A stretch of 64,000 nt of DNA, filler included, from Stramenopiles sp. TOSAG23-6 (lineage: Eukaryota), in NCBI GenBank assembly GCA_900128565.1. It is 40 parts of 40 records of this genome, joined end to end, with 100 filler letters (N's around TTAATTAATTAA, not from the genome) between each part and the next. Parts side by side here need not be neighbours in the genome. Positions count along the whole stretch, not along the records: positions 16,134 to 17,644 come from LT638945.1; positions 17,745 to 19,254 come from LT638946.1; 38 more parts are not named here. One strand, given 5' to 3'. The notes beneath the pieces are model-generated. The model was not told where the DNA came from, did no database searches, and saw nothing but the letters and a program-made list of their open reading frames with translations. Below are positions 508 through 58,394 of this stretch, in pieces. A program made the translations under genes and the position numbers. The stretch's first letter is position 1, and each line of letters starts with the position of its first letter.

Positions 508-605
508 ATAACTAACTAACTAACTGAATAACTAACAAACTAACTAACTAAATAACTAACAAACTAACTAACAAACTAACAAACTAAATAACTAACTAAC
601 TAACA
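508..605. repeat. Imperfect (AACT)n microsatellite
   Basis: Direct inspection of the sequence. Confidence 0.85.
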
Positions 606-1125
606 AAAATAAAAGTACAACAACAGTGTATATATATAATACTGATTGTAAATCAATGACCTTTAACATTCACGTTTTATGTTTTCGTACGAAATTTTGT
701 ACCTAACGTTTTTTTTAATGGTTGAAGAAAATTTGATGATATAGTAAAAACATTTTTTTCCGAGTTCAAAGTGTTTAAAATGATGCACGCATAGACATTT
801 TACGTTTAGGGTTAGGGTTAAATGTAGCTAGAAAAATAGGATCAATATGGTTTCATTATAATTAAAAATTAAGCGTCTGATTATTATAGTAATACTCATT
901 TTTATATATATTGTAAATAGTGTTAATACTTTACTACAGTATACATTATAAATGCATATACTACTATTTCTTTGTTATATTCCATTTGTTGTAGCAAATT
1001 CCACATATTATCATTTTCTTCTTCTTTCTTAGAATAAAGGAATTGATGCAACATTAAAAAAAAAACACACCTTTTTACAGGACTTGATAACCACTTTGGT
1101 AATTAAGTTTAAAAGATGTTATTTT

Positions 1126-3338: not shown

Positions 3339-4743
3339 ATGCGCCAATGAATGAGACAATACCTAAAAATATAAGAAACAAAGATTGATATTTTGGCATT
3401 GATAAAAACGAAAATAAAATAGGCATACAAATACGACCAGCCGATCCTGCACTTCCAATCCATCCCATATTTGTGCATGTACTTTTAAAAAGTACTTTTA
3501 AAAAATATTTTTTTTTGTTAGGTACAAAATTAACTACGAAAAAAAAAATTACTAAAAAAAAAAAATTTTAAAAAAACATATACTGTGTAGATAAATAGTA
3601 TAAATGCATGAAAACTATGCATTACAAACAATACTTTGAAAATAAAGAAAAACATTGAAACGAATAGGTTAAAAAAATCATGTGTGTCAATATTGAAAAT
3701 TCAAAAAAAAATTTAAAAAAAAATTCCAAAAAAAAAAAAAAAAATGTTTTTCTATGAAAATGTACTACAAAAAAAAAATATTGAAAACATAGAAAAAACG
3801 TACCAGGCGATGAATTTCCAATGACATGAGAAAAAGTACTAATTACGGATGCTCCTGCAAGAGGCGCACCGATAGACCAAACCAATATTTCTGATATAAC
3901 TAAAATATTAAATGTCGGATTTAAAATTGTCTAAATAAATCGAAAATATTTGAATTTTTTTTTTTTTTTTGTTAGGTACAAAATTTTGTATGAAAAAAAA
4001 GATTGTAAAAAAATTATTTAAAAAAAAAATTACAAAAGCAGTGCAAAATGTTCCGAATCCAATCATTGCAAATGCAAATACATTCCAGTTATGATCCTTT
4101 ATTGTGAATTTTTTACCTAAAAATCCTTTCGAGCTACACGCCACAGAATGTGAAAAATATTTCAATAAAAATTTAAAAAAAATCGTTAGGTACAAAATTT
4201 CGTATGAAATTTTTTTTTTTTTTTTTTTTTAAATTCATGATAAACACGAAAAAGACATACATTGTGAGCATTACAAAAAAACCTATTATACCAAGATACA
4301 TTAAAAATAAAGAAATATTTGTTGAATGTGTATGGAGTATACTATCTGAATTATTTGAATGAAGCAATATAGTTGTAGGTTTCGTGTTATTTTGAAATGT
4401 TTGAGTTGTATTTGTTATATTTGTTATATTTGTTGTATTTGTTGTAAGGTTAACCCTACTAGGGTTAGGGTTATTTTGTGTTATTTTCATATTTTTTGTT
4501 TTTAAATATAGAAATGGGGTAATTGTTTCAAAAATTGACAAAATTCCCTTAGCTAACAAATTTAGTATGATAAATAAGATATATCCTTTCCAATAAAGAA
4601 AAGAAGGTAAAATTTGACTTTTATCTATAGGGTTAGGGTTAGGGTTAGTTTTTTTTTTCATAGACATTTTTGTATTAATTTTTGTATTAATTTTTGTATT
4701 AATTTTTGTATCAATTTTTGTATTAATTTTTGTATCAATTTTT
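3339..4743 (-). CDS. MFS transporter (MFSD8-like), multi-exon, partial
   Basis: Hydrophobic helices. The spliced motif FSHVIGNSSPG|TNMGWIGSAGSAGRICMP is restored by removing intron 3477-3803. Confidence 0.7.
3477..3803 (-). other. GT-AT intron (two family units) in the MFS gene
   Basis: CCT G|GTACG...AAGTACAT|GC ACA gives P-G-T-N-M-G. The upstream exon does not end in AT, so the register is not ambiguous. Confidence 0.7.
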
Positions 4744-6554: not shown

Positions 6555-7676
6555 GGTAGTAGTGGTTATACTAGTGTTATTCATTCAGGCTATGCTTCAT
6601 TAAATGATTCACAGGCCCCATCAAGACAATTATCTGGTATTGGTTCACCAACAATGATGATGTCATCACGTCCATTAAGTTCAAGTAGTAGTCATCAGAA
6701 CCCTAACCCTACTGGGCGATCTTCATCGACTAACCCTAACCCTAACTCAATGTCATTTCGCCCCATTTTGAATTTATCTACTGGAAATACTCCTTCTATT
6801 GCATCATCTGATTCAAGACAATTATCACCAACATTGTTTATGGGTACATCTACATTGAATACAGCAGTTGGGACACGAAAAAATAGTATTTCAAGTTCAA
6901 CTGGGGTAGGGTTAGGGCTCAATTTGATAGGAAGTGGAATTCAAACACCAATACATGAAAAGATACCCGGTACCGATCAAAATAATGATCATACCATCAT
7001 GGCAGCTGAACTCGCTGATGCTTTGCGTAATTTACCTTCAGATGGATTGTCATCTAGTGATGAAGGAAAAAATAAAATGACAATGGCCGCTGCCTTTGCT
7101 GATGATCTGTTGCAATTAGATGATGATGATGATGAAAGTGATGATGATGGTGAAAGTGATGATGATGATAAAAAAGATGATATATATAGTAAAGATAATG
7201 ATGATTTCTTGGATCAGAGAGATGGTGGAATCTTGGATAATATCAGTAGTAATACACTAAAAAATGATGAAAATGATGATGAAAATGAAGAAGATGGTGA
7301 AAGTGATGATGATGAAAGTGATGATGATGAAAGTGATGATGATGAAAGTGATGATGATGAAAATGATGATGAAAATGATGATGAAAGTGATGATGAAAGT
7401 GATGATGATGATGATGATGATGAAAATGATGATGATGAAAATGATGATGAAAGTGAAAATGATGAAAATTCAACTGATGATGAAGAAAAAAATAAACGAC
7501 AATCACAAAAAATAATTCTGCAAACTCAAGTGGATGAATTAAATGACCGAATCAATAAATTAGAAAAAAGAATAGAAAATACAAGTAATGCAACAATGCG
7601 TATGAGAAGGGAAAAACAATTAGAAGAACAGAAAAAAAATCGTGAAGATTTAATTAGAAAAATGAATGATTTTTGA
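6555..7676 (+). CDS. Terminal exon of a Ser-rich/acidic coiled-coil protein
   Basis: The open frame extends upstream of the annotated ATG to a family intron ending in CAATATAG. It has an Asp-rich tract and a C-terminal coiled coil. Confidence 0.7.
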   Translation, partial: GSSGYTSVIHSGYASLNDSQAPSRQLSGIGSPTMMMSSRPLSSSSSHQNPNPTGRSSSTNPNPNSMSFRPILNLSTGNTPSIASSDSRQLSPTLFMGTSTLNTAVGTRKNSISSSTGVGLGLNLIGSGIQTPIHEKIPGTDQNNDHTIMAAELADALRNLPSDGLSSSDEGKNKMTMAAAFADDLLQLDDDDDESDDDGESDDDDKKDDIYSKDNDDFLDQRDGGILDNISSNTLKNDENDDENEEDGESDDDESDDDESDDDESDDDENDDENDDESDDESDDDDDDDENDDDENDDESENDENSTDDEEKNKRQSQKIILQTQVDELNDRINKLEKRIENTSNATMRMRREKQLEEQKKNREDLIRKMNDF

Positions 7677-11296: not shown

Positions 11297-12034
11297 ACAC
11301 AAGAATTAGGTAAACTATTTGGATTTAGAATTCCATCACCACCACATAATTTACATAAATTTAATTGTAGTGATAATTTTAAGCAAGAGAGAATGCGACA
11401 TCGTATACGAAAAAATCCTTTTTGGCAATATTTCTGATTATTATTTTTTTGTTTTGAAAATGTTTGATTATTTTTGATATTTTCAAAATCATCTTTTTTG
11501 TTATTTTTGTTAGGGTTAGGGTTAACTTGATGATGATTCTTTGCTGGTTGTAAAAATTGGTCATGATAGCTAGGGTTAGGGTTATTAGGGTTAGGGTTAC
11601 TAGGGTTAGGGTTACCTATATTAGAATTTGTTGTTGTACGTAAATTATGATCAGATAAATATCGTCTTCGACCATTTTCAACAGGTTTGTTACTTTTTTT
11701 CGTAGGAAATTCTGTACGTAAAAGAAATTGAGTATCGTTTTTTTTTACATCATCAGTATGACTAGGGTTAGGGTTACTAGGGTTAGGGTGTAGATGCTGT
11801 TTCTCAATAACAGTTGTAGAAATGATGTCGCTACCTGAAGGGTTAGGGTTAGGGTTGAAATTCGCATCGATATTATTTTTTGTACCTTTTGTAATTTCAT
11901 TATTTTTAGTATGTTTTGTGTTTTTTTCATTTTTTTCATTTTTTTCATTTTTTTCGTTTTTCGTGTTTTTCGTGTTTTTCATTTGTGCTACTGGACTTTT
12001 ACTACTAAAGGAAGATCCTGGAGAATTGACGGGA
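11297..12034 (-). CDS. Exon of a low-complexity Asn/Lys-rich protein with NPNP tracts
   Basis: The open frame begins right after the family acceptor AGAATACAT. Confidence 0.55.
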
Positions 12035-12909: not shown

Positions 12910-14421
12910 GACGATGATTTCTTGTTAAACATTGGATGTATTTGTTTTTTCGATTTCATGTTTTTCTCTTCTTCTATTCTAGCATCGGATACAATATCTA
13001 ATGACGATGTAGATGATATATTTTCATCTAAAACATCGTTTATTTCAGTATTCTTTTCAGCATTGAAATTTTCTTCCAATTTATTTTGAGGTGAAGTAGA
13101 ATTCGGGTTAGGCTTACATTCTTCTTTTTCTTTGACTATGTTAACTCCAGATTCAACAACTTTGTTTTTTTGTATCACAGTATTATCTTTGCATTCTTTT
13201 GTGTCTTTTTTGTTGCTACTATTTTGTTCTATGACGGACTCACTTTTTGTAGTACATTTTATCTTAGTATTGATGTCAACTTTTGCAACGAGTTGTTCAT
13301 CTTCATCATCGGAGTCAATAATTATTTTCTGTTGCCGCTTTGATTGAGTAAGTTTTCGTTTTGAAACTTCAATTTCAACACAAGGATCTGTTTTTTTATC
13401 ACCAACAGGGCTAAAAAATGACGTCATACGTTTTGTAGTTTGAGGAAAAGTTTCGACCTCATGATCGTCATGTAATTTTGTGAAAATATTTCAAACATTT
13501 GATGTTTTGTTAGGTACAAAATTTTGTTTTCGTAAAAAAAAAAAAAAAAAACTTGAAATAAAAGATGAAAACTTACATCATCTATATCCATACTATCATC
13601 AATATCATCACCAAGTATTTTGTAAAAATATTTCAAAAAAAAATTCGTTAGGTACAAAATTTCGTACGAAATTTTGTACCTAACGAATTTTTTTTTGAAA
13701 TATTTTTACAAAATACTTGGTGATGATATTGATGATAGTATGGATATAGATGATGTAAGTTTTCATCTTTTATTTCAAGTTTTTTTTTTTTTTTTTTACG
13801 AAAACAAAATTTTGTACCTAACAAAACATCAAATGTTTGAAATATTTTCACAAAATTACATGACGATCATGAGGTCGAAACTTTTCCTCAAACTACAAAA
13901 CGTATGACGTCATTTTTTAGCCCTGTTGGTGATAAAAAAACAGATCCTTGTGTTGAAATTGAAGTTTCAAAACGAAAACTTACTCAATCAAAGCGGCAAC
14001 AGAAAATAATTATTGACTCCGATGATGAAGATGAACAACTCGTTGCAAAAGTTGACATCAATACTAAGATAAAATGTACTACAAAAAGTGAGTCCGTCAT
14101 AGAACAAAATAGTAGCAACAAAAAAGACACAAAAGAATGCAAAGATAATACTGTGATACAAAAAAACAAAGTTGTTGAATCTGGAGTTAACATAGTCAAA
14201 GAAAAAGAAGAATGTAAGCCTAACCCGAATTCTACTTCACCTCAAAATAAATTGGAAGAAAATTTCAATGCTGAAAAGAATACTGAAATAAACGATGTTT
14301 TAGATGAAAATATATCATCTACATCGTCATTAGATATTGTATCCGATGCTAGAATAGAAGAAGAGAAAAACATGAAATCGAAAAAACAAATACATCCAAT
14401 GTTTAACAAGAAATCATCGTC
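12910..14421. repeat. Whole-contig perfect palindrome (probable fold-back or assembly artefact)
   Basis: Mirror-image ORFs with the symmetry axis at 13665/13666, inside the intron palindrome TTTCGTACGAAA. Confidence 0.9.
13719..14421 (+). CDS. Low-complexity hypothetical protein exons with GT-AT intron 13755-13861
   Basis: GAT|GTAAG...TTACAT|GAC joins in frame to the 13904 ORF. A mirrored copy lies on the minus strand. Confidence 0.55.
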
Positions 14422-15553: not shown

Positions 15554-16215
15554 ATGAATAAATGAACCGAATTAATAGTATGAAAAGTCAACATTGAGAA
15601 TACACTGTTTGTATTAAATATTATTCGTTCATCCAGTTATATATTCAGTACACATGGATGGACTTTGTTAATTTATATTTGGTTGATTTAATACCTTGAT
15701 TGAATCTATGAAAATCTGAAAATTTTGTATTTCTAACTAAATCATATGAAAATACAGCAGCCTGATACTTGTAGTAAGGTTGCAAGTACACAACAAAATA
15801 CATTTCAGAACGTTTCAATTTGTTAATTTATTTTTTTTCATATGAAATTTTCTACTTAACAAAAAAATAAAACAATTTATCAAAACACTAACTAGTAACA
15901 AAATATAACCCGAATTTCACTCCAATATCGTTTTACTTTCACCCGAATTTCACAATTTTTAACTTTGTAAAAATTCCTAGTTAAATGGTACAAATAATAC
16001 ACATCTGTTGTAAATAAAAATAACCNGCCTAAANNNNNNNNNNNNNNNNNNNNNNNNNNNNNNNNNNNNNNNNNNNNTTAATTAATTAANNNNNNNNNNN
16101 NNNNNNNNNNNNNNNNNNNNNNNNNNNNNNNNNTTCAAAAAAAAAAATTCAAAAATTTGTTAGGTACAAAATTTCGTATGAAAAAAAAATCATACAAAAA
16201 AAAAAAAAAACATAC

Positions 16216-17554
16216 ATGCAACCGTTTAGGTAATTCAACAGAATCATCAGCAATGTATTCTTCTTTTAATGTAATCATGTATTTTGGAAAAATATTTCAA
16301 AAAAATCAAAAAAAAATTGTTAGGTACAAAATTTACTATAAAAAAATGTAGACAAAAAATTAAAAAAATAAAACATAAAAAACAAAAATTTCTTAGGTAC
16401 AAAATTTACTAGAAAAAAATGTAGACAAAAAATTAAAAAAAATAAAACATACATTTTTGATTCCTGTTCAAGTTCAGTAATTGTGTCCATTGGTTGTAGA
16501 TCACCAGAAGCAACAGTCGTTGCAGTAGCGACAGACCATTGAATTAATTTTACTAAAAGCCACCAACAAGGGAGTTTTAAATGAGCGGCGTCGATTTATT
16601 GTGAAAAAATATTTCAAAAAAAAATTAAAATTTGTTAGGTACGAAATGTCGTACGAAAAAAAAAAAATTTTTTCTGAAAAAATATTTCAAAAAAAAAAAA
16701 AATTTGTTAGGTACAAAATGTCGTACGAAAACCAAAAAATGAAAACGTACATACAACTAGAGTCTCCATATAAAGCAATTCGACCTCCAGACATTTTATT
16801 TACTTTTTCTGTTTCATTATTTTGAGATACGTTTGTATCAAATAATCCCAAAATAGGTATGTATTTCAAAAAAATATTTCAAAAAAAAATTAAAAAATTT
16901 GTTAGGTACAAAAATTTTTTTACCAAAAAAAAAAAAAAATAAATGTGAAATTAAAAAAAACATACATATCATATTCCAAGATATGGTTTGTATTATTCAT
17001 CATTTCTTTACCTTGATTATACAAAGGCACACGAAATAATTTCCCCCCTCGTGGAAATCGAGCAATAGAACTTCCAGATGAATATTGAAATCGTCGTTGT
17101 GAAAATGGAAGATATATTTTAAAAAAATATTTCAAAAAAAAAAAAAATTCTTAGGTACAAAATTTACTACAAAAAAAAAAAATATTTTTAGAAAATATTT
17201 CAAAAAAAAAAATCATAAAAAATTTGTTAGGTACAAAAATTGTTTTACCAAAAAAAAAAATAAATAAATAAAACATACATAGATTTCACCATTAAACACT
17301 TGATTACTCAAAGAAATACCAAATGGAGCTAATAATTCATTATACGCCGGTGCATTCGCACCACCTCCAATAACACTTTTCCAAAATACTGAAGTATTTG
17401 TATCAAAAAATCCAATTTTTTCGTGTGTCAATTTCGAATTAAACCACTCTGCAAAGACAACAACAGAAAGACCTTTTTCTCTTATATCATTTTCTAATTT
17501 AATTCGTTCTTCAGGGATGAAATTTTCTTCAGAATCCGCGAGAAGTAAAACTCC
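16216..17554 (-). CDS. MBTPS1: Site-1 protease (subtilisin-like), C-terminal exons
   Basis: GVLLLADSEENF, GLSVVVFAEWFN, FFDTNT, GGANAPAYNELLAPFGI, GRIALYGDSSC|IDAAH. Joined by GT-AT introns 17112-17278, 16859-16965, 16594-16750 and 16277-16452. Confidence 0.88.
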
Positions 17555-17774
17555 ATTTATTTTGGAAAAATATTTCAAAATTTTCTTTAAAAAAAAATTG
17601 TTAGGTACAAAATTTCGTACGAAAAAAAAATTCGATTTTTTTGTNNNNNNNNNNNNNNNNNNNNNNNNNNNNNNNNNNNNNNNNNNNNTTAATTAATTAA
17701 NNNNNNNNNNNNNNNNNNNNNNNNNNNNNNNNNNNNNNNNNNNNAATACATTTTGTAAAGATTTTTTTGAAAAA

Positions 17775-21351: not shown

Positions 21352-22427
21352 ATGCCTATATTACTTGTTCGACATGCAGAGCGAGCCGACTACGTTGCAA
21401 AGAAGTGTAATAAAAATTGGATTAAAGTGAGTCAAACTATGGAACCTTGGAATCCCCCTTTATCACAACGTGGGATACGCCAAGCTTATTGGTTAGGAAA
21501 GTTGATTGAAAGAGAGATTTCACGACTAGGGTTGCCACCCGTAGCACGTATTTTTAGTTCACCTTTTCATAGATGCTTACAAACAGCTGTTGGTGCCATT
21601 GAAGGACTAGGGGGAAGCCGGAAACTGAAAGTTGCAATAGAACCAAGCTTGGTGGAATCGTATTTTATATAATACTATCATAACACACACGATTGTAAAA
21701 AAAGTATCACTGTTTATTAACTTGTATTTTGATTAATATATTGTACAGATTATGTTATGTGTGAAGATTTTTTCAGATCTTGGTGTACCAAAAAAAGTGA
21801 TGGTACTTGGGGGGGAGCAAAAGGATTTCGAAAAGGTGTTCCAATAAATGACGAAGACTTACACTTTGCATCAAAAGATAACTTTGGTAAATGGATAGAT
21901 AGACCAGATGAAATTGCTCAGAAATACTTGAAAATTAGCCCATATATAGATCAGTCATATATGTCTCTACTATATACAAATGAAAAAAGAACAGAAAATA
22001 CCATGGCGGAAAATCACTGTAAAGTTTCATCCTTTACCTTTCAATGGGAACAATTCGAAGACTGTCCAGGAACATTAACCTCACCTGGTGTTTGTATTGG
22101 AAATTACAAAATTAACCATAGTGCAAAGAGTTCAAGTAAAGGTAGTGGCCTCTTAGGTAGACTTGGTCGTTTTTTTGAATATGTATCGACAATGTATCCA
22201 AATGAAACTGTAATTCTTGTTTCGCATGGCATGTGCATAAATCTACTTTTCCGTCATAGTCAACGTGGCTCTCTTGATGTTCCTCGTGTAGGATATACTT
22301 CTCTATTCATCTTAGAAAAGCCGCTTGTAACTAATGACAAATGGAATCCGTTGGTTATAGCCAATGGTTCAGCCATTGAAATAGAACGTCTTGGCAGTCT
22401 TTCCTTGAATAATGCATTCGAAGTCAT
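21352..22427 (+). CDS. Histidine phosphatase (phosphoglycerate mutase-like) family protein, two exons visible
   Basis: LVRHAERAD, FSSPFHRCLQTA, IEPSLVE and ILVSHG motifs. Intron at ~21660-21755. Confidence 0.85.
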
Positions 22428-34489: not shown

Positions 34490-35184
34490 TTAAGAAATAA
34501 CTCCGCATTTTTTTCCTACTTCAATAAATGTATCTACAGCTCGGCTCACTTCCTCTGGTGAGTGAGCGGCTGAAAGTTGTACACGAATTCTTGCCTTTCC
34601 ATGTATTGTGAAAAAAAAAAAAATTTTTTGGTAAAAAAAAATCGTTAGGTACGAAATTTACTATGAAAAAAAATTAGGTGAAAAATGAAAAAAAATAAAA
34701 CATACATGTGGAACAACAGGATAAGAAAACCCAATTACATAAATTCCTCTTTGAAGCATCTCATCAGCCATCTCACTAGCAAGCCGAGCATCACCAAGCA
34801 TGTATTTTGAAAAAATATTTTTTTTTTTTTGTACAATTTGAATTTTTTTTTTGTTAGGTATAAAATAAAATGTATTATAAAAAATATTTAAATTTCACAA
34901 AATAAAAAAAAAATAAATAAATAAAGAATAATAATGTTGGACACATACATGACTGGCACAATAGGATGATCTCTATCGCCCGATAGAGTAAACCCTGCAG
35001 CGGTCAAACCATCTCGGAAAGTGTGTGCGTTTTTTCGTGTTTTTTCGACGGCATCAGATGATGCTTGCAGCATTTCAAATACTTTAATGGATGCTCCAAC
35101 TACAGGCGGTGCCATTGAATTTGAAAATAAATAAGGTCGCGCACGTTGACGAAGAAGATCGATAATTTCTTTACGACCTGTTGT
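34490..35184 (-). CDS. GCAT: 2-amino-3-ketobutyrate CoA ligase (glycine C-acetyltransferase), last three exons
   Basis: [33 protein letters not shown] and [31 protein letters not shown] introns 34800-34948 and 34601-34705; the upstream acceptor is TACAG. Confidence 0.92.
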
Positions 35185-35427
35185 CTGTACTAGTAGAAAA
35201 ATTCAAAATTTTTTTTTTTAGAATTTTTTTTGTTAGGTACAACATTTTTTTACTAAAAAAAAAAAAAAAAAAAAAAAAAAATTTAAAAAAGTTGTTAAAA
35301 AAAAAAAAAAAATTAAAAAAAAAAAAANNNNNNNNNNNNNNNNNNNNNNNNNNNNNNNNNNNNNNNNNNNNTTAATTAATTAANNNNNNNNNNNNNNNNN
35401 NNNNNNNNNNNNNNNNNNNNNNNNNNN

Positions 35428-35565: not shown

Positions 35566-36872
<1,307 letters not shown>

Positions 36873-38689: not shown

Positions 38690-40053
38690 ATTGACCTCTT
38701 TCTTTGTCTTCACCACACGAAATCTTTGCTGATTCTGAACATATTTTACAGTCTTTCTGACTGTTTGGAGCTACTGCTCTATCTATTGCAGGTTCGGTTG
38801 AAGTATGAGGTAAACAAGGAATGCAACGATTTCGTCTACTTTTCATGTATTCAATGTTCCCAGTACCAAGTTGGTTGATAAATTCCCTTCCTTTTCTTCT
38901 CATTATAGATGTATTTTAGAAAAATATTTCAAAATTTTTTTTACCAAAAAAAAAAAAAAAATTTGTTAGGTACAAAATTTCCTATAAAAAAAAATGTAGA
39001 CAAAAAAAATGAAAAAAAAATAAAACATACATACATCAGTGATTGATGTAATCATTGAATACACGAGTTCCTCTTGTTTTCGAATTTCATAATTGAATTG
39101 TTCATCAATCCAAAAACCAACTGGACAAACTTCATTATCACAAATTCCAGCACATAGTTGTCGGAATACATATCTATCTTCAATATCCATGTATTGTAAA
39201 AAAATATTTTTGTTTTTGTTTTTGTTTTTTTGTTAGGTACGAAATTTCGTATGAAAAAAAATATTTTTTTAGTAACAAAAAAATTGAAAAAAAAAAAAAC
39301 ATACATATTTTCAGCACAACGAAATAAATTACCCGCAAGATTACACTCAAAACTACGATGTTTTTGTTGTTTTATCGTTCGAGTATCTCTATCATAATAT
39401 GTTAATCTAGATTCCGGACAAATTGTACTTGGATCTTCATATTCTACTTTATCAACATCTAACAATTTTCTCATATAATTAAATACTTCATTTTGTATTT
39501 TTATTTTTTTGATTGCTTTTGTTCTCTCTCTACTATTTTTAGCATGATCACAACCATCTGTATGTATTTTGGAAAATATTTCAAAAAAAATCTAAAAAAA
39601 ATTGTTAGGTACAAAATTTCGTACGAAAAAACAATTCAATTTCAAATTTAAAAAAAAAAATAAAACATACATTTCTTCTCCAAAATTTTCGTAGTCCTTT
39701 AGGAACATCAACAAGTCTATTACCTTCTAAATTTAAAGATTCTAATAAGGGTAATTTATCCATAAAATCATCAGGCATTCTAAGGAGCATATTTTGACTT
39801 AAATCAAGTCGTGCATGTAATGTGAAGAAAATATTTTGTTTTTGGTTTTAAAAAAATCGTTAGGTACAAAATTTGGTACAAAAAAAAAAAAAAAAAAATT
39901 TCGAAAACATACAATTCCTTTGTGATTGTTTAAAATTTCATTCAACGTTTCCTGAAAAGACGCTAATTTTGTATCGCGATTTACAACCATTTGTTGAGCC
40001 GTCACAGTATCGTAATTATATAACCCAAGCGTACCTATTAGATTTCTACTCAG
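38690..40053 (-). CDS. LRR-containing multi-exon protein
   Basis: KGI|ARLDLSQNMLLRMPDDFMDKLPLLESLNLEGNRL. GT-AT introns 39815-39912, 39562-39670, 39189-39304 and 38909-39030 all join in frame. Confidence 0.75.
39815..39912 (-). other. GT-AT family intron (diagnostic, exon ends in TT)
   Basis: ATT|GTATG...CATTACAT|GCA restores the LRR I-x-x-L-x-L pattern. Confidence 0.8.
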
Positions 40054-40240: not shown

Positions 40241-41520
40241 ATGTTTGCTTTTACATGATAAAAATATTTATTTATTTCAAATACTATTGACATATCGTAC
40301 AGAATATTCTGTGTACGTTTGTTTTTATTAAAATGATGAATGATGTTTGCTTTTACATGATCAAAATATTTTTTTATTTTAAATACTATTGACATATTGT
40401 ACAGAATATTGTTGGTATTTTTGTTTTTATTTAAAAGATGACTGATGTTTGTTTTTACATGATAAAAATGTTTTCTTATTTCAAATACTATTTACATATT
40501 GTACACATTATTGGCCGTATTTTTGTTTTTATTCAAACAATGAATGATGTTTGCTTTAGAATGATGAAGATGTGTATTTATTTCAAATATTATTGAAATA
40601 TTGTACACATTATTTCACATATTTTTGTTTTGATTCAAACAATGAATGATGTTTGCTTTTACATGATAAAAGTGTTTATTTATTTTGTCTTGATATATTG
40701 TACAGATTATTGTATGTATTTTTTTTTTATTCAAAAGACGAATGATGTTTGCTTTTACATGATAAAAATGTATATATATTTCAAATACTCTTGATATATT
40801 GTACAGATTATTTGCAGTATTTTTTGTTTTTATTCAAAAGATGAATGATGTTTGCTTTTGCATGATAAAAATATTTATTTATTTCAAATACTATTGGCAT
40901 ATTGTACAGATTATTTGAAGCATTTTTGTTTTTATTCAAAGATTGAATGATGCTAACTTTTACATGATAAAAATGTTTATTTATTTCAAATACTATTGAC
41001 ATATTGTACAGATTATTGATAGTATTTTTGTTTTCATTCAAAAGATGAATGATGTTTGCTTTTACATGGTAAAAAACATTATTTATTTCAAATACTATTG
41101 ACATATTGTACAGATTATTGGAAGTATTTTTGTTTTTATTCAAAAGATGAATGATGTTTGCTTTTACATTATAAAAATATTTTTTTATTTTTAATACTAT
41201 TAACATATTGTATAGATTATTAAAGGTATTTCAGTTTTCATTCAAAAGATTAATGATGTTTGCTTTTACATGATACAAATGTTTATTTATTTTGAATACT
41301 ACTGACATATTGCATAGATTCTTTTGCGTATTTTTGTTTTTATTCAAAAGATGAATGGTGTTTGCTTTAGAATGATAAAGATGTGTATTTATTTTAAATA
41401 CTATTGACATATTGTACACATTATTAAAAATATTTTTGTTTTTATTCAAAAGATGAATGATGTTTGCTTTTACATGATAAAAATGTTTATTTTTTTTTTA
41501 TATATTTAACATATTGTACA
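40241..41520. repeat. ~102-bp tandem array, about 12-13 copies
   Basis: ATGTTTGCTTTTACATGATAAAA recurs about every 102 bp. Confidence 0.92.
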
Positions 41521-42176
41521 TATTAAATACCATGTTGTCAATATTTTATAATTATTAAATGCAAAACTACTATAGTTCACATTATTTACCAAACTGTGAT
41601 TAATCCATTGTCCATTAAATATATTATTCATATCATACAATATGTCCTTCTTCTTTTATGCCGGAAAAAAACCCAAAAAATGGTAAAGCAACAATTCGCA
41701 TTCAACAAGATGACATGTATGTTTTATTTTTTTTTTTACAAAAANNNNNNNNNNNNNNNNNNNNNNNNNNNNNNNNNNNNNNNNNNNNTTAATTAATTAA
41801 NNNNNNNNNNNNNNNNNNNNNNNNNNNNNNNNNNNNNNNNNNNNTTTTTTTTCGTACGAAATTTTGTACCTAACAATTTTTTTTTTTTGAAATATTTTTT
41901 CCAATACATGTATGCTGGTCTCTGGACTGATATGGCGAAAATGTATGAGACTGTTAAAGAGTTGTAGAATGTTTTGCACTACTTGACTTGTGTGGCTTCA
42001 ACGTCATAACCCTAACCCTAACTCTACGCACGAAATTTCAGAAAATGTAGGAAAAAAAAAAATAAAAAATTCCCTTAATTTTTTAAATACTTTATTTGTA
42101 ATACACGTTTATTTTTCATATCAATGTAGTTGATTTATTTATGTTATTTAGTTGTATGACTTTTTTTCTTATAAGT

Positions 42177-43291
42177 TTATTCTTTCATGGAGACTATCGA
42201 ATATCGTAATGATAAAGCAATTATTCCAAATGTCCATGTATTTTGGAAAAATATTTCAAAAAAAAAAAAAAAAAAAAAATTTCGTATGAAAAATAAATTC
42301 GAATTTTTTTGTAAAAAAAAAAAATAAAACATACATTGAATAAAAAGTAACAAAAAACACAAACTTTCTTCTTTCATTGGTCCAAAGACACCTAATGTAT
42401 TTTGGAAAAATATTTCAAGAAAAATCTAAAAAAATTTGTTAGGTACAAAATTTTTATAAAAAATAAATTCGATTTTTTTGTAAAAAAAAAATAAAACATA
42501 CATGTATTGTGAAAAAATATTTCAAAATTTTTTTTTAATTTGTTAGGTACGAAATTTCGTACGAAAAAACAAATTAAATTAGAAATTCATATAAAACCTA
42601 CATGCAACATTGATCAGTGTCCGATTCATTTGACCAGTAGATGCACATATTGTGAAAAATTATGTTTTATAGTTTGAAATTCGTTAGATATTTTACAAAA
42701 TAAGATTTAAAAAATGTGAAATGTATGATGAGAATGATACAAAATAAGATTTTTTTTTTTTTTAAATAAAAATAAATATGAAATGTATGATGAGAATGTA
42801 CATAAGAAGGCCCACGAAGTCCTGTTTTTACATTAAATATAGGAAGTCGATGTCGAGGATTTGGGATGGCACCCGGTACCCAATTTGGAATTAATTGTGG
42901 AATTGAAATGACAAAATTCAGTAATTGAGGGATCAAAAATAAAAGTAAAGTTTTTGAAAAATGACCCATGATCCCGGTAACAGCAAATGTCATTCCTGCA
43001 AAGTAGCAGAATGTATCACCAACAAAAACCGATGCCGGGAACCAATTGTAGCGTAATATGTATTTTGGAAAAATACTTTTAAAAAAAATTATAAAAAATT
43101 TGTTAGGTACAAAATTTCGTATGAAAACCAAAAAAAACAAAAAAAGTAAAACATACATACCCGCAGTTACTGCAATGAATGGACTTATCAAAGTGGCTGA
43201 TAATAAATGATTTGCGACGTAAACAGGAGGCGAATAACCAGGAGAGCCATCTCCTTGATGACTGACTAATTCATACAAATTCATTGTAAGT
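42177..43291 (-). CDS. DPAGT1: UDP-GlcNAc:dolichol-P GlcNAc-1-P transferase, 3' exons
   Basis: [24 protein letters not shown]...[17 protein letters not shown]...[23 protein letters not shown] and LRY. Five family introns. Confidence 0.93.
42395..42601 (-). mobile_element. Two back-to-back family introns (42502-42601 and 42395-42501) with a zero-length exon
   Basis: The junction reads ...CAATACAT|GTATGTTTT. Removing both units gives GCA T|TA GGT. Confidence 0.75.
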
Positions 43292-43532
43292 ATGTATTTT
43301 GGAAAAATATTTCAAAAAAAATCTAAAAAATTTTGTTAGGTACAANNNNNNNNNNNNNNNNNNNNNNNNNNNNNNNNNNNNNNNNNNNNTTAATTAATTA
43401 ANNNNNNNNNNNNNNNNNNNNNNNNNNNNNNNNNNNNNNNNNNNNTTTGGAAAAATATTTCAAAATGTTTTTTGTTAGGTACAAAATTTCGTACGAAAAA
43501 AAAATCATACAAAAAAAAAAAATAAAACATAT

Positions 43533-44894
43533 GTCCACTAAACTGAACAATTCTTGGAAGATACTTTAATAAAGCAACTTGAACATCTTGTGGAAATCGT
43601 GCTGCTGGAAGAATTTCTTGTTTTGGTACAGATACTAATAGTGACCTTAATTCTCTCATCAACTGAAGTGGAGTAATACGAATACCATGAATTGTGAAAA
43701 AATATTTCTAGTTTTTTTTTTTTTTTTTTTTCATTGAAATATTTTTCGTGATGTAGAAAATTTCATAGTAAAAAAATGTAGATAAAAAATTCAATTTTGA
43801 AAACGTACATTCTTCCAACGAATAGGACTTGAAAACATTGCAAGAACATCAATTTGTCGACGTTCAACTGTATCTTCTGGATTACCAAGGTAAGATGTAT
43901 TTTGAAAAATATTTCAAAAAAAAACCTTAAATTTGTTAGGTACAAAATTTCGTACGAAAAAATTATTCAAATTTGAAAAATATAAAACATACGTTCTAGT
44001 TGTTTCTACGGTTTGGCATATTGCTGAAGGTAGATTTGTTACGGGTAAGCAAAGCTTTTTTTGTGTCATTGGTGATATTCTACTTGTCACAAAATGTAGT
44101 CGTTCTGGTCGATACGAAGTAGTTGGTCGATGTGATGAATTTGATGTAACATCAAAAGCATTTATGTCACTACTTCCTTTGATTTCATCATCCGTTGTAA
44201 TATTGTGTATGCTACTAAATCTATTTAGAATACGAAGTGAATTATCACGTCTTTGCATCGCCTCATTCATTTCAAGTTTAGCTAGTGCAGCTTTTGATTT
44301 TGATTTCAACTCTGCAGTTGTTTCTTCCTCCACTTTATCTTGCACAAAGATAGTATTTGTCATTGCAGATACAGTTTCTTCTCGAATATCTATCCCGGAA
44401 AACATTTTGAAAATAAGCATACATACATTTACCTCAAATGGGTGTTTAAATGCTTCTCGAGAGGATGGACACGAGTAGTAAAATCCATGTCTAATTGCCC
44501 GGGATAATGCATTAGGAAAGTATTGAAGTAAAGAGTCCTTCTCTCCTCCCAAAGCCATAACTTTATCCACCGAAATCTTCTTATATCGTTTTGTAGTTAA
44601 TCGATCCCCAGGTCTAAGATGATCACTGTGTTTATTATGTTTCCGTTTTCGGACACGAGTAGACGATGTTGAATCAATCTTGCAATTTCCCTTTTGACGT
44701 TTTTGATTGTTATTGCTGTTTTTCTGATTCAATTTTACAGATTTTGCATTTTTATTTACATCACATGATAGGCTAGATAGTGAATCCATGTGTGATATAA
44801 TACGTAAATATGAATACTGTATCTTTGATAATTGAACTTGGCATTCGGTTTCTGAATTCTTCTGGAAAAAACTAGCTTGAATAAACCAATATAG
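43533..44894 (-). CDS. CHAT-domain (caspase-like) protein exons
   Basis: DVLAMFSSP...PLQLMREL...LPAAR...ALLKYLPRIVQFSGH. Confidence 0.65.
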
Positions 44895-49835: not shown

Positions 49836-51230
49836 TTTCTTGTTTTCAAAAATACCACATCTATAAAACAATCGACCTCTATTAATATCTTTTTTTTTCG
49901 ACAAAGGTTTAACTAAAACTCGAGCAGCATATCCACACCAACATTTCGGTGCATTCTTTTCTGCTTCAGCGATTTCTACTTCCGTATTATTTTTTTTCAA
50001 TGTAAGAATATGTTTTTGAATTGGAGATTTTGAACGATTTCTGCATTTCTTTTTCATAGTTGTAGAGTTTCTTGTTTCGATATTTCTTTTTAAAAGATTA
50101 TTATTATGAGTCGTTGTCACTTTGGGAGATAAAGTCTTTACATAAAATGGAACAAAAGATAAACTTATTAATAAAAAGCCTGGTAAATATGATAGTGATG
50201 ACCAATGTCGAAGCAAAATGAAATACAGTGATATTATCATTACAACACATAATAACACTATCATTGATGTGAACATATTATTCGTTACTACTATAACATA
50301 TGGTTCTAACGGCTGCCATATCGGGAAACGTTTCACCATATAAGTACCTTCTAAGGTATAACCACGCTTACGATAATATTCTCGGGTACCGACACCAGCA
50401 ATTACAGAAATTCCTTTGAATCCAGCTGCAATGGCTTCTTTTTCGGCAGCCCGCATTAACCGTTTTCCAAATCCGGAATGTTGGGTCTCCAAATTACTAT
50501 TCTTTTCTATTACTGAATTACTAACATTACGGGTTTTACTACCTTTCTTTCTCACTTCGCGAACTTGACCGTACATGTACAAGGAAAAAATATGTCAAAT
50601 TCGAAAATTTGTTAGGTACAGAATTTGGTAAAAACAAATTGAAATTGAAATGAATGTTAAAAACATACACATGCAATTCACGAACAAGTGCTGTGTGTGC
50701 GATCTCTGGAAATACATGAGTAGAACCAAATGGTTGACTCTTACGCCATATTACATCATTGATTTTTCTATTTTCTGCAGCATCTTTTGCCTCTTTCAAT
50801 CGAGGTTTTGAGTTCTGTTTAGCAGCTATTGATGGTCGTAATGAATTTTCCTCCCAATTTAATGGAATTCCGGCATTTTGGCTTAATCGAAGTCGAAGAA
50901 ATCCAAATATTACCTCATCATTAGGGGGACCTTTTGATTCATAGGAAAGGAATATTTCACGACCACCGGATGATTTATATTCCCGACGGACTAAAACCGC
51001 ATGTAGTTTGGAAAAATATTTCAAAAAAAAATACTTAGGTACAAAATTTCGTACGAAAAAAAAATCGAATTAAAAAAAATAAAACATACATTATCCACTG
51101 ACCATTCAGGTTTTTCATTGTTACGATTTCTAATTTCACGACATCGAATACAACGACAACGTTCTCCCCGTCTTATTAGTTCCTTTTGTATAGTTTGTCG
51201 AAGATTTGTGGTTGAATTCCCACCCATGAT
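49836..51230 (-). CDS. ELP3: Elp3-like acetyltransferase C-terminal half with TM helices and a zf-GRF-like motif (copy 1)
   Basis: [52 protein letters not shown] and [19 protein letters not shown] introns 51001-51089 and 50575-50668. Confidence 0.9.
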
Positions 51231-51429
51231 ATGCATTGTGAAAAAGTATTTCAAAAAAAATAAATTGTTAGGTACAAAATTTCGTACGAAAAAAAATAAA
51301 TTCGAAATTGAAAAAAAAATAAAACATACNNNNNNNNNNNNNNNNNNNNNNNNNNNNNNNNNNNNNNNNNNNNTTAATTAATTAANNNNNNNNNNNNNNN
51401 NNNNNNNNNNNNNNNNNNNNNNNNNNNNN

Positions 51430-52824: not shown

Positions 52825-53023
52825 ATGCATTGTGAAAAAGTATTTCAAAAAAAATAAATTGTTAGGTACAAAATTTCGTACGAAAAAAAATAAATTCGAA
52901 ATTGAAAAAAAAATAAAACATACNNNNNNNNNNNNNNNNNNNNNNNNNNNNNNNNNNNNNNNNNNNNTTAATTAATTAANNNNNNNNNNNNNNNNNNNNN
53001 NNNNNNNNNNNNNNNNNNNNNNN

Positions 53024-54418: not shown

Positions 54419-54670
54419 ATGCATTGTGAAAAAGTATTTCAAAAAAAATAAATTGTTAGGTACAAAATTTCGTACGAAAAAAAATAAATTCGAAATTGAA
54501 AAAAAAATAAAACATACNNNNNNNNNNNNNNNNNNNNNNNNNNNNNNNNNNNNNNNNNNNNTTAATTAATTAANNNNNNNNNNNNNNNNNNNNNNNNNNN
54601 NNNNNNNNNNNNNNNNNACAAAATTTCGTACGAAAAATAAATTCGAAATTGAAAAAAAAATAAAACATGC

Positions 54671-57547: not shown

Positions 57548-57837
57548 GTTTTCTGTCTGGTATTGCCTATAGGTAATTTAAATTAAGATTCATCTCTTTT
57601 ATGAATTTATTTAGGAGGCATGTCGAGTAGCTATTAAGATGAGCAACTAACTTGCTCGAGAAAAAAATATATTTGAATTTAAATTTCAAATTGAATGCCA
57701 TTTTNNNNNNNNNNNNNNNNNNNNNNNNNNNNNNNNNNNNNNNNNNNNTTAATTAATTAANNNNNNNNNNNNNNNNNNNNNNNNNNNNNNNNNNNNNNNN
57801 NNNNTTCTTGAGTGTGCTAACGCTACATCATCTAAAG

Positions 57838-58311: not shown

Positions 58312-58394
58312 TGGTTCATACTTAAAATGATTTAAATATTTTTTTTATAGTTAAATATTAATCAATAATTATTTTGATGATTAGTCACCACCTG

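What the first reader, a model, noticed from the sequence alone, without database searches (positions are those of the whole stretch)
16216..17644. The introns are one repeated, introner-like family with AT duplication, inverted termini and a palindromic core
Seen: roughly 70 copies by eye, including duplicated contigs, share the layout AT|GTATGTTTTATT-Tn-TTTCGTACGAAATTTTGTACCTAAC-Tn-GAAATATTTTT-CCAAAATACAT. The site-1 protease fragment alone has six in 1.5 kb. Most are flanked by AT on both sides, and the ends are inverted (ATGTAT...ATACAT). Copies in genes always lie in the sense orientation, and many contigs break inside them. Inference: a non-autonomous DNA element GTAT...ATAC inserts at AT with a 2-bp duplication, and the duplicated AT serves as the acceptor. 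An alternative is an unusually long splicing signal maintained by selection.
Basis: partly seen in the sequence, partly recalled or inferred. Interest (0 to 1): 0.82.

Follow-up and report, generated by a model that had tools for sequence, protein, structure and literature searches.

The report
One intron family ending in AT
Almost every intron visible in this marine protist's DNA is a copy of one roughly 100-base sequence that begins GTATGT but ends in AT instead of the near-universal AG, an unusual splicing rule that also makes standard gene prediction go wrong.

Summary
A profile built from 12 copies finds 80 hits (E<0.01), 71 clusters and 63 distinct copies in 64 kb. Six interrupt the site-1 protease fragment.

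The layout is fixed:
- GTATGTTTTAT
- a T-run
- (TTTCGTACGAAA)TTTTGTACCTAAC
- a T-run
- GAAATATTTTT
- C(C/A)AAATACAT

Removing exactly GT...A(T) restores open frames. It also restores colinearity with homologues in KBL, ELP3, an ABCC transporter and an RRM protein. These are real introns, always in the sense orientation, and AG is rare at the 3' end (3 of 43).

AT precedes the donor in 26 of 38 copies against a 13% background. All 27 complete introns fall into one blastn cluster. A seawater metagenome holds thousands of contigs carrying the family.

Not shown:
- the transposon mechanism. The inverted termini are only 4-6 nt, I found no transposase, and only one partial intergenic copy;
- the exact cut. 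GT..AT and AT..AC give the same product whenever AT lies upstream;
- splicing at the RNA level. The RNA runs covered no exon.

Two introns need an AC end. A public gene model on this DNA forces GT-AG and loses conserved residues.

Verdict: an introner-like intron family with a non-AG acceptor, a new variant of a known kind.

The parts
17555..17644 (-). 3' part of a family intron cut by the contig end. It ends ...CCAAAATAAAT before the exon that starts GGAGTT.
17279..17554 (-). Site-1 protease exon (92 aa).
   Evidence: Pfam MBTPS1_4th, profile 75-163, E=5e-29
17112..17278 (-). Composite family intron (167 nt): AT|GTATGT...AAAATATAT|. It holds two branch-box to 3'-box units.
   Evidence: phase 0, unique open frame
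16966..17111 (-). Site-1 protease exon.
   Evidence: Pfam MBTPS1_4th, profile 166-203
16859..16965 (-). Simple family intron (107 nt): AT|GTATGT...GAAATACAT|.
   Evidence: full-length profile match 1-108; phase 2
16751..16858 (-). Site-1 protease exon.
   Evidence: Pfam MBTPS1_4th, profile 215-239
16594..16750 (-). Composite family intron (157 nt): AT|GTACGT...CACAATAAAT|. It contains a 72-nt tandem duplication.
   Evidence: Tandem Repeats Finder period 72, 2.0 copies, 90% matches
16453..16593 (-). Exon with the ...C.D..H....C.WLL motif. It also has a chance-level likeness to a K+ channel filter.
16277..16452 (-). Composite family intron (176 nt): AT|GTATGT...CCAAAATACAT|. It contains a 73-nt tandem duplication.
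   Evidence: Tandem Repeats Finder period 73, 1.9 copies, 94% matches
16216..16276 (-). Short exon (61 nt).
   Evidence: open through-frame across both neighbouring introns
16134..16215 (-). 5' part of a family intron (AT|GTATGT...) cut by the contig end.
50575..50668 (-). ELP3 intron with GT, not AT, upstream: GT|GTATGT...TTGTACAT|. Cutting at GT..AT gives HVY|GQV.
   Evidence: the PDB homologue has LVRELHVYG
39815..39912 (-). LRR-protein intron with TT upstream: TT|GTATGT...CACATTACAT|.
   Evidence: only offset 0 gives an open frame
34601..34705 (-). KBL intron: AT|GTATGT...CACAATACAT|. The junction is VVPH|GKAR.
   Evidence: the flanking exons match adjoining residues of 3tqx_A (..363 +1 | 365..) and 1fc4_A and are colinear with P0013
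34800..34948 (-). KBL intron, a diverged composite: AT|GTATGTGTCC...CAAAATACAT|. The junction is PVM|LGD.
35185..35327 (-). 3' part of a KBL intron of the same family that ends ...CTAGTACAG| (an AG end).
42395..42601 (-). Two complete family introns abutting with no exon between them (42601-42502, then 42501-42395), in the ALG7/GlcNAc-1-P transferase gene.
42236..42334 (-). Family intron that lacks the GTACCTAAC box but keeps the 5' box and both 3' boxes. It must be removed to keep the frame.
43897..43992 (-). Exception: AC|GTATGT...CAAAATAC|AT. The frame closes only if the intron ends at AC, or one base beyond the AT.
   Evidence: exon length counted by hand
36142..36241 (+). Exception in the ABCC gene: AT|GTGAGT...GATATAC|GT. 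The frame needs an AC end. The intron holds TTAGGGTTAGGGTTA.
668..721 (+). Partial family copy (branch-box region only, no splice ends) between two convergent genes.

Best explanation
These are the organism's own nuclear introns, removed from pre-mRNA by a spliceosome-type mechanism. As far as this sample shows, nearly all belong to one sequence family of about 90-125 nt, longer when parts are tandemly duplicated.

Each copy carries:
- a yeast-like donor, GTA(T/C)GT followed by TTTAT;
- a branch-type box, (C/T)(G/A)TA(C/G)GAAATTTTGTACCTAAC, whose CTAAC adenosine lies a median 42 nt from the 3' end;
- T-runs;
- a two-part 3' signal, GAAATATTTTT and C(C/A)AAATACAT.

The cut removes GT...AT, so the acceptor is A+T. 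It is A+G in a few copies and apparently A+C in two.

Shown: the family, its orientation, and the exact length and place of the removed segment.

Inferred: the family arose by copying, like an introner, and the boxes are now held by selection as splicing signals. The AT before the donor could be the remaining copy of a 2-bp target duplication. It could also be this lineage's counterpart of the usual exonic AG. I cannot tell which.
For: Family:
- 80 profile hits, 63 distinct copies.
- One blastn cluster of 27 introns against 0-2 pairs in shuffles. Similarity reaches the exon flanks in only 4 and 2 pairs.
- Mean pairwise identity 0.72, maximum 0.93.
- In a seawater DNA metagenome, 6824 contigs were laid on the five introns of one contig. 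Summed depth was 10^4-10^5 on the intron parts and about 3-7 on the exons.

Boundaries:
- With GT...A(T/G) an open through-frame exists in 15 of 25 introns, against 3 of 25 at other offsets. With 90-nt flanks it is 20 of 25 against 7-9 of 25.
- 23 of 27 introns have a unique open frame.
- Exact colinearity with homologues: both KBL junctions; ELP3 HVY|G; ABCC IIPQN|PVLF (motif partly recalled); RRM RNP1 KGY|GYVTF (consensus recalled).

GT..AT rather than a cut two bases upstream:
- ELP3 keeps the conserved Val. The shifted cut would give Met.
- LRR intron 39912 keeps Ile at the first LRR position. The shifted cut would give Asn.

Spliceosomal character:
- G at +1 in 34 of 37 donors; GTAYGT in 29 of 38.
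- CTAAC within 90 nt of the end in 35 of 42.
- A at -2 in 42 of 42.
- Sense orientation only.

Copying:
- Abutting twin copies.
- Subfamily-like linkage of the two halves.
- Shared oddities such as the AGA insert in the T-run, by my reading.
- Copies with upstream AT sit slightly nearer the consensus, 0.82 against 0.78 (p=0.07).

A public gene model on this same DNA (P0003) uses GT-AG and thereby loses the conserved HVYG motif and 52 partly conserved residues.
Against: - There is no RNA evidence. The three metatranscriptome runs laid on contig 41845-43345 covered intron parts only. They gave no exon cover and no splice joint, and DNA carry-over cannot be excluded.
- Where AT lies upstream (26 of 38), GT..AT, TG..CA and AT..AC give the same product. 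The preference for GT..AT rests on two introns.
- Two introns (43992, 36142) do not fit the AT end.
- A G at the first and a U at the last intron position is not a known productive pair in studied spliceosomes (recalled).
- My acceptor caller looked only for AT or AG.
- The sample is 64 kb of a fragmentary, amplification-type assembly.
- For the copying origin: conservation is concentrated in four boxes, the spacers are low-complexity T-runs, and the Mantel p is only 0.03.
- I could not compare intron positions with orthologues.
Confidence: 0.6

Rival explanations
1. The introns are old and were never mobile. This lineage simply evolved unusually long, strict splicing signals, and every intron has converged on them under selection.
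For: Information content is concentrated in four boxes, with little in the T-rich spacers. Even very diverged members keep the end boxes (42800 and 43810 regions; 21661 region). Every intron seen in conserved genes is of this type. The exonic AT|...|G looks like a G-to-T version of the usual AG|...|G.
Against: About 55 of 100 positions are conserved, far more than known signals need. Some pairs are 85-93% identical over 70-112 nt, spacers included. Two complete copies abut. The similarities of the two halves are correlated. One copy works without the CTAAC box, so that box is not strictly required. The phase spectrum 10:4:9 fits random insertion at AT sites (p=0.46) and departs marginally from a phase-2 share of about 22%, a background value I recalled (p=0.048).
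Confidence: 0.25
2. One reading: a non-autonomous DNA transposon, GTAT...ATAC, inserts at AT with a 2-bp duplication. The duplicated AT serves as the acceptor, so splicing restores the original sequence.
For: AT upstream in 26 of 38 against 13%. The terminal AT is nearly invariant. The twin copy sits exactly at the terminal AT of another copy. The principle is known for introners (Huff et al. 2016, recalled; passages of PMC12130899). There is a weak trend for AT-flanked copies to lie closer to the consensus.
Against: The inverted termini are only 4-6 nt, show no covariation and give weak pairing. There is no full copy in antisense or intergenic position. No transposase in 35 translations. AG-ended copies lack an upstream AG. 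The strand-asymmetric T-richness is unlike a typical MITE. Reverse splicing into AT|G sites would give the same picture and would explain the sense-only orientation directly.
Confidence: 0.35
3. The true cut lies two bases upstream at both ends, making these AT..AC introns (ATGTATGT...ATAC). That satisfies the known first-A/last-C rule and might use a transformed minor-spliceosome-like system.
For: The product is identical for the 26 of 38 copies with upstream AT. Both exceptions end at ATAC. Two donors start ATATGT. [quoted passage not shown]
Against: Twelve of 38 donors lack an upstream AT and would then start with GT, TT, AC, CT or AG. In ELP3 and the LRR gene the shifted cut replaces a conserved Val and a consensus Ile. 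The donor is GTATGT, not [AG]TATCCTT. The branch box lies a median 42 nt from the end, not 10-15 nt.
Confidence: 0.2
4. Removal does not use the spliceosome. Either the ends pair, as in euglenid and diplonemid nonconventional introns, or the elements are cut out of the DNA, as in ciliate IES.
For: The ends are complementary over 4-6 nt and flanked by a short direct repeat. The 3' end is not AG.
Against: The borders are strongly conserved and include a canonical-looking donor and a CTAAC box. Folding is weak (mean z -0.83, ends paired in 7 of 21). The strict sense orientation and one-strand T-richness argue for recognition at the RNA level. The elements are abundant in metagenomic DNA.
Confidence: 0.06

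Closest known systems
Introners (intron-generating transposons of Micromonas, Aureococcus, fungi, dinoflagellates and others; Gozashti et al. 2022 and 2025, Huff et al. 2016)
   Same: Many near-alike introns at unrelated positions in one genome, with similarity stopping at the exon border. The operational blastn test is met. The idea that a target duplication supplies a splice site is recalled for Huff 2016. For PMC12130899 I saw passages. For the 2022 preprint I saw only the search listing.
   Different: As far as I know, known introners use GT-AG and coexist with ordinary introns. Here the acceptor is AT and no ordinary intron was seen. No autonomous element, clear TIR or proven TSD was found.
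Amoebophrya non-canonical introns and introner elements (PMC7789003, passages)
   Same: A marine protist whose non-canonical introns form repeated families. Short direct repeats overlap the borders and the ends are inverted, so the borders are ambiguous.
   Different: Amoebophrya shows no dominant dinucleotide pair, 8-20 nt inverted repeats that form hairpins, and many families. Here there is one family, a fixed GTATGT donor and CTAAC box, only 4-6 nt of end complementarity, and a fixed AT end.
Fritillaria borealis non-canonical introns (PMC13326754, abstract and outline)
   Same: A genome in which most introns escape GT-AG and the machinery that reads the 3' end has adapted (divergent U2AF paralogues).
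   Different: That is an animal, and both ends are non-canonical. Here the 5' end is canonical.
Nonconventional introns of euglenids and marine diplonemids (PMC6221363 and PMC12621601, passages)
   Same: Non-AG ends, short flanking direct repeats, complementary ends, and a proposed MITE origin. In diplonemid single-cell genomes they were predicted without RNA data.
   Different: Those lack conserved borders and rely on stable end pairing, G/C-rich in hemistasiids. Here the borders are highly conserved, AT-rich and weakly paired.
Expanded U12-type introns of Physarum (10.1101/2020.10.12.336362, passages)
   Same: Massive gain of one intron class. The last base is tolerated as variable with A kept at -2, and GT-AT occurs.
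   Different: The donor and branch motifs and the branch-to-3' distance of U12-type introns are not met here. In Physarum GT-AT is a small minority.
Extended fused branch/3' motifs of Giardia and Trichomonas introns (recalled)
   Same: Long, nearly invariant intron-internal motifs shared by all introns of a genome.
   Different: Those genomes have few introns, and they end in AG. Here introns are dense (six in 1.5 kb) and end in AT.

Membership tests
Introner, operational definition used in the literature (PMC12768974 methods) | Two or more introns of one genome are alike at blastn E<1e-5, and the likeness does not run into the exons. | tested here: met
   263 of 351 pairs among 27 introns, one cluster. 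Ten shuffles gave 0-2 pairs. Only 4 pairs (5' side) and 2 pairs (3' side) reach 6 nt or more into both exon flanks. The E-values are for a small database; the best pairs are at 1e-20 to 1e-30.
Introner as a DNA transposon (MITE-like) | Target site duplication flanking the element. | tested here: inconclusive
   AT upstream in 26 of 38 and terminal AT in 40 of 43. However, the 3' AT persists without the 5' AT, and the pattern fits a splice-site consensus equally well.
Introner as a DNA transposon (MITE-like) | Terminal inverted repeats of about 10 nt or more. | tested here: not met
   Only GTAT/ATAC, or ATGTAT/ATACAT with the flanks. No covariation by my reading. Ends pair in 7 of 21 folds.
Introner as a DNA transposon (MITE-like) | An autonomous partner with a transposase, and copies in both orientations outside genes. 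| not testable with these tools
   No such domain in 35 translations, and one partial intergenic copy. No whole genome is held and the contigs are about 1.5 kb.
Introner (any mechanism) | Positions absent in orthologues of relatives, or polymorphic. | not testable with these tools
   No eukaryote genomes are on hand. The metagenome scan with the core motif found only 3 unrelated loci.
U2-type spliceosomal intron | GT donor with a U1/U6-type consensus. | tested here: met
   G at +1 in 34 of 37 and T at +2 in 37 of 37. GTATGT 21, GTACGT 8, GTAGGT 3 of 38.
U2-type spliceosomal intron | yUnAy branch motif and a pyrimidine-rich stretch upstream of the 3' end. | tested here: met
   CTAAC within 90 nt in 35 of 42, at a median of 42 nt. 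The introns are 52% T. One working copy lacks the box.
U2-type spliceosomal intron | AG at the 3' end. | tested here: not met
   AG in 3 of 43 and AT in 40 of 43. No AG is available in, for example, intron 39912-39815.
U12-type intron | [AG]TATCCTT donor, and a TCCTTAAC branch 10-15 nt from the end. | tested here: not met
   The donor is GTATGTTTT. The branch box is 31-63 nt from the end.
Euglenid/diplonemid nonconventional intron | No conserved borders; a stable structure joins the ends. | tested here: not met
   The borders are highly conserved. Mean fold z is -0.83.
Ciliate-type internal eliminated sequence | TA-bounded, symmetric ends, independent of orientation, removed from DNA. | tested here: not met
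   AT, not TA. The internal layout is asymmetric and sense-only. Removal from DNA was not tested.

The most novel reading that the evidence does not exclude
A free-living marine eukaryote lineage has rewired 3' splice-site choice. Its spliceosome uses A+U (more loosely A+N, placed by the upstream GAAATATTTTT / CMAAATACAT boxes) as the general acceptor. Its whole intron set has been replaced or created by a single self-copying intron family whose insertion at AT sites supplies that acceptor. This would be the first genome-wide GU-AU intron system. It would also be a live case of introners and the spliceosome evolving together.
Probability: 0.35. Interest if true: 0.9.

Novelty: new variant of a known kind. 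Interest (0 to 1): 0.78.

Why it matters
If RNA data confirm it, this organism breaks the AG rule at the 3' splice site for nearly all its introns while keeping a textbook donor and branch box. That makes it a natural experiment on how the second step of splicing reads the intron end. It also bears on how an intron family and the splicing machinery adapt to each other.

The finding touches the old question of where introns come from. One family appears to account for an intron density like that of vertebrates: six introns in 1.5 kb of the site-1 protease gene.

In practice, gene models that assume GT-AG are wrong for this lineage. The public model P0003 on this very DNA loses the conserved HVYG motif and 52 partly conserved residues and reads into an intron. 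Protein catalogues and functional inferences for this group of uncultured marine protists may therefore be systematically damaged.

My literature searches found no report of genome-wide GT-AT introns. Searches for introns in single-cell or MAST stramenopile genomes listed no paper reporting unusual introns. Passages I read in two such papers mention only intron density or gene-prediction methods. Gawryluk et al. 2016 is not held and supplements are closed, so an earlier description cannot be ruled out.

Tried and rejected
- Metagenome scan with the 19-nt core motif: 3 loci, GC 0.38-0.44, matching only the core. I judged them unrelated.
- RNA proof of splicing: three metatranscriptome runs and one DNA run were laid on contig 41845-43345. 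The RNA contigs lay on intron parts only. There was no exon cover and no usable joint, so no verdict. The joints listed link different copies of the repeat.
- Same-species transcript-derived proteins: the ELP3 'near' search found 2 weak hits. The 'longer' search found only the genomic gene model P0003. The KBL 'near' search found homologues but no identical protein.
- Rfam: no RNA family in the window, so no snRNA to compare with the signals.
- Protein atlas for taxonomy: uninformative.
- PDB search with the 20-aa ABCC exon: no hit. The colinearity of exception 36142 therefore rests on recalled ABCC sequence.
- A rule of 'deletion between 2-nt direct repeats' was considered and rejected. It fits the two exceptions but fails for ELP3 and for intron 39912.
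- A hairpin formed by the two GTAC motifs was considered and rejected. Variant copies do not keep the pairs (my reading).
- Intron phase as a test of age: low power.
- The regex hunt for non-family introns gave mostly spurious hits. The one clear candidate without the core box (about 21661-21730) can be read as GT..AT, but its borders are not settled.
Full report
WHAT THE WINDOW IS. The 64 kb window is a string of about 40 contigs of roughly 1.5 kb, joined by N runs and TTAATTAATTAA spacers. GC is 0.20-0.34. The standard code gives long ORFs with eukaryotic domains:
- site-1 protease MBTPS1_4th, aminotransferase (KBL), ABC transporter, glycosyltransferase family 4 (ALG7-type) and plant-type LRR;
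- RRM and FWWh;
- GNAT, SEC-C and peptidase M49;
- EF-hand, TPR and FYVE;
- ELP3.

Some contigs are duplicated: the ELP3 contig occurs three times, and one contig occurs in both orientations. One contig (12910-14421) is an inverted chimera, as amplified single-cell DNA tends to give. Run look-up places the DNA in seawater metagenomes and metatranscriptomes. The source-given name of protein P0003 reads to me like a label of a marine stramenopile (MAST) group. I did not pursue this further.

GTACCTAAC occurs 58 times against 0.2 expected. An nhmmer profile from 12 full copies (108 positions) finds 80 hits at E<0.01 in 71 clusters, 63 of them distinct. The layout is constant:
- exon ...A-T | GTATGTTTTAT;
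- a T-run, often with AATTTCGAATTT;
- (C/T)(G/A)TA(C/G)GAAATTTTGTACCTAAC;
- a T-run;
- GAAATATTTTT;
- C(C/A)AAATACAT | G... exon.

The site-1 protease contig holds six copies. Its five exons are ordered along the Pfam profile. The other points of the observation also check out:
- AT precedes the donor in 26 of 38 copies against a 12.9% background (p=4.5e-15).
- The palindrome TTTCGTACGAAA occurs 23 times.
- Eighteen of 78 contig ends fall in or beside a copy, while copies cover 9.3% of the bases.

THEY ARE INTRONS, AND THE REMOVED SEGMENT IS DEFINED TO THE BASE.
- Joining the exons after removing GT...A(T/G) leaves an open frame in 15 of 25 testable introns, against 3 of 25 for offsets of 1 or 2 bases. 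With 90-nt flanks the figures are 20 of 25 against 7-9 of 25.
- 23 of 27 distinct complete introns have a single open through-frame. Of the other four, one has too short an exon. One is the abutting pair, which I read by hand as colinear with recalled DPAGT1 sequence. Two are the exceptions described below.
- KBL, intron 34705-34601: the upstream exon matches residues 334-363 of PDB chain 3tqx_A and carries one more residue. The downstream exon starts at residue 365.
- Both KBL junctions (PVM|LGD and VVPH|GKAR) are colinear with the homologue P0013.
- ELP3: the upstream exon ends ...LVRELHVY, and the archaeal-type structure 5l7j has LVRELHVYG. The downstream exon supplies the G.
- ABCC transporter: the exon after intron 35902-36053 starts at PVLF, which is ABCC4 residue 1124, following ...IIPQN.
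- An RRM gene is split inside RNP1, KGY|GYVTF (the consensus is recalled).

THE 3' END IS NOT AG. The last two bases are AT in 40 of 43 distinct acceptors and AG in 3 of 43. The last four are ACAT in 30 of 43. My caller accepted only AT or AG near the predicted end, but the profile alignment itself ends in ACAT. A at -2 is invariant (42 of 42) and T at -1 occurs in 39 of 42. In intron 39912-39815 there is no AG between the branch box and the exon, and the next AG downstream gives a stop. AG-ended members of the same family do exist: 31330-31230, 12682-12523, 62739, and the KBL intron ending at 35185.

THE TWO-BASE AMBIGUITY. Where AT precedes the donor, cuts at GT..AT, TG..CA and AT..AC give the same mRNA. 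Frame alone cannot separate them even without an upstream AT, because shifting both cuts keeps the length. Two introns without upstream AT speak for GT..AT:
- In ELP3 it gives the conserved Val of HVYG, and the shifted cut gives Met.
- In the LRR gene it gives Ile at the first hydrophobic LRR position, and the shifted cut gives Asn (the consensus is recalled).

Under the shifted model 12 of 38 introns would begin with GT, TT, AC, CT or AG, which is less economical than a uniform GT.

Two introns do not fit the AT end:
- 43992-43895 (AC upstream) closes the frame of the 86-nt exon only if the intron ends at ...ATAC, or one base beyond the AT.
- 36142-36241 (GTGAGT...GATATAC|GT) also needs the AC end. 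The resulting spacing matches ABCC4/MRP1 as I recall them (the direct search failed).

The acceptor therefore looks like A+N, with T strongly preferred. Assembly errors cannot be excluded for these two.

ONE FAMILY BY DESCENT, OR ONE SIGNAL?
- By the operational test used for introners (methods passage of PMC12768974), all 27 complete introns form one cluster. There are 263 of 351 pairs at E<1e-5, against 0-2 in ten shuffles. Likeness seldom enters the exons.
- The best pairs are 85-93% identical over 70-112 nt. Mean identity over match columns is 0.72.
- Distances in the 5' third and the 3' third are correlated (Mantel r=0.23, p=0.03).
- By eye there is a GTACGT...CATGAATTTCAAATTT...CACAATACAT type and a GTATGT...CCAAAATACAT type.
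- Two complete copies abut with no exon between them (42601-42502 | 42501-42395).
- Seven of 27 introns are composites. Tandem Repeats Finder shows 72-73-nt duplications in two of the site-1 protease introns.
- One fragment lies between convergent genes (668-721).
- In a seawater DNA metagenome, 6824 contigs at 90% likeness or more lay on the five introns of a single contig. Summed depths were 10^4-10^5 on the intron parts and 3-7 on the exons. The flanks of those contigs disagree with each other (loose-end agreement 0.38-0.79). Depth sums are not copy numbers, but the family is clearly present at thousands of places.
- Against descent as the only cause: information is concentrated in four boxes and the spacers are T-runs.
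- Both readings can be true at once.

THE TRANSPOSON MECHANISM IS NOT SHOWN.
- The inverted termini amount to GTAT/ATAC, six bases when the flanking AT is counted. Variant donors are not matched by compensating 3' changes (my reading).
- Folds are weak, with mean z -0.83 and ends paired in 7 of 21.
- The element is 52% T on the sense strand throughout, which is unlike a palindromic MITE.
- None of 35 ORF or exon translations has a transposase, integrase or reverse-transcriptase domain. With 1.5-kb contigs this says little.
- The exonic A-T | ... | G resembles the ordinary A-G | ... | G with G changed to T at both places where AG normally stands. A changed U1 and 3'-site reader would explain that as well as a target duplication does.
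- Copies with upstream AT are slightly closer to the consensus (0.82 against 0.78, p=0.07).
- The phase spectrum (10:4:9) fits random insertion at AT sites (p=0.46) and is marginally rich in phase 2. Both are weak hints for insertion.
- Reverse splicing into AT|G sites would give the same structure and would explain directly why copies are sense-only.

PUBLIC ANNOTATION. P0003, from a public eukaryote protein collection, maps letter for letter onto contig 49836-51329 in five blocks. It uses AGs inside true exons, drops AVLV, drops 52 residues that include the conserved FGFLRLR stretch aligned, reads into the intron after RELHVY and skips the exon start that carries the G of HVYG. This shows the cost of assuming GT-AG here.

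COMPARISON WITH WHAT IS KNOWN.
- It works like an introner family (for PMC12130899, passages; for the 2022 preprint, search listing only) and meets the operational definition. The transposon hallmarks, however, are unmet or untestable.
- It shares short boundary repeats, inverted ends and non-canonical borders with Amoebophrya introner elements (PMC7789003, passages). It differs in having one family, a fixed donor and a fixed AT end.
- It shares the escape from AG with Fritillaria (PMC13326754, abstract).
- It shares that escape, and the end complementarity, with euglenid and diplonemid nonconventional introns. It fails their defining lack of conserved borders.
- GT-AT occurs as a minor U12-type class in Physarum, but the U12 donor, branch motif and branch distance are not met here.
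- My literature searches found no report of genome-wide GT-AT introns. Searches for introns in single-cell or MAST stramenopile genomes listed no paper reporting unusual introns. Passages read in two such papers mention only intron density or gene-prediction methods. Gawryluk et al. 2016 is not held and supplements are closed, so an earlier description cannot be excluded.

VERDICT. The family and the exact excised segment are solid. The AT acceptor is well supported in silico but unproven in RNA. The mobile-element origin is plausible but open. I file it as a new variant of a known kind, with interest 0.78.

Noticed in passing
806-820, 4633-4647, 6731-6745, 11510-11524, 11585-11599, 36153-36167, 42007-42021, 55225-55239: The telomere-type 15-mer TTAGGGTTAGGGTTA occurs 8 times in 64 kb against 0 expected. 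Two lie between convergent genes, and one lies inside a family intron. The sites at 4633, 6731, 11510, 11585 and 55225 fall inside long ORFs that contain NPNPN runs. I did not map the sites onto those runs.
   Followed up: partly
49836-51329 (also 51430-52923 and 53024-54517): The public gene model P0003 is letter for letter on this contig. It forces GT-AG introns, losing the conserved ELP3 HVYG motif and 52 partly conserved residues and reading into an intron.
   Followed up: yes
16455-16592 (-): The exon ...LIQWSVATATTVASGDLQPM resembles the K+ channel selectivity-filter region of KcsA (WSVATATTVGYGDL) at E about 0.01. This is probably chance in a low-complexity stretch.
   Followed up: no
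12910-14421; 57805-59296 vs 59397-60888; 49836 / 51430 / 53024: One contig is an inverted-repeat chimera, one contig is present in both orientations, and one is present three times. This fits amplified single-cell DNA and a redundant assembly.
   Followed up: partly
16311-16451, 16594-16740: Tandem duplications of 72-73 nt (1.9-2.0 copies, 90-94% matches) lie inside introns of the site-1 protease gene. Seven of 27 complete introns are composites of this kind.
   Followed up: partly
40241-41744 (-): A contig filled with a diverged tandem repeat. It reads as repeated NLYNMSIVFEINKYFYHVKANIIHLLNKNKNT-like units, with exact 40-mers repeated about 100 nt apart.
   Followed up: no
49857-50300 (-): The ELP3 reading frame runs on past the conserved C-terminus (...YMVKRF). 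It continues through a hydrophobic stretch and a CWCG...FYRCG zinc-finger-like motif without a stop. This could be a fusion, a missed intron or a neighbouring gene.
   Followed up: no
510-605 (+): A microsatellite of (AACTAACT)-like units sits in the intergenic region of the first contig, next to the partial intron-family copy.
   Followed up: no
21661-21750 (+): An intron-like gap in the phosphoglycerate-mutase-family gene lacks the GTACCTAAC box. It has the donor GTATTTTATAT, a TTATTAAC motif, and both ...GATTAAT and ...TTGTACAG near its end. Only AT-ended readings keep the frame with a GT donor.
   Followed up: partly
41845-43345: Contigs from poly(A) and other metatranscriptome runs (73, 140 and 1134 laid) carry intron-family sequence with varied flanks but none of this gene's exons. 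Unspliced RNA, stable intron RNA and DNA carry-over cannot be told apart.
   Followed up: partly
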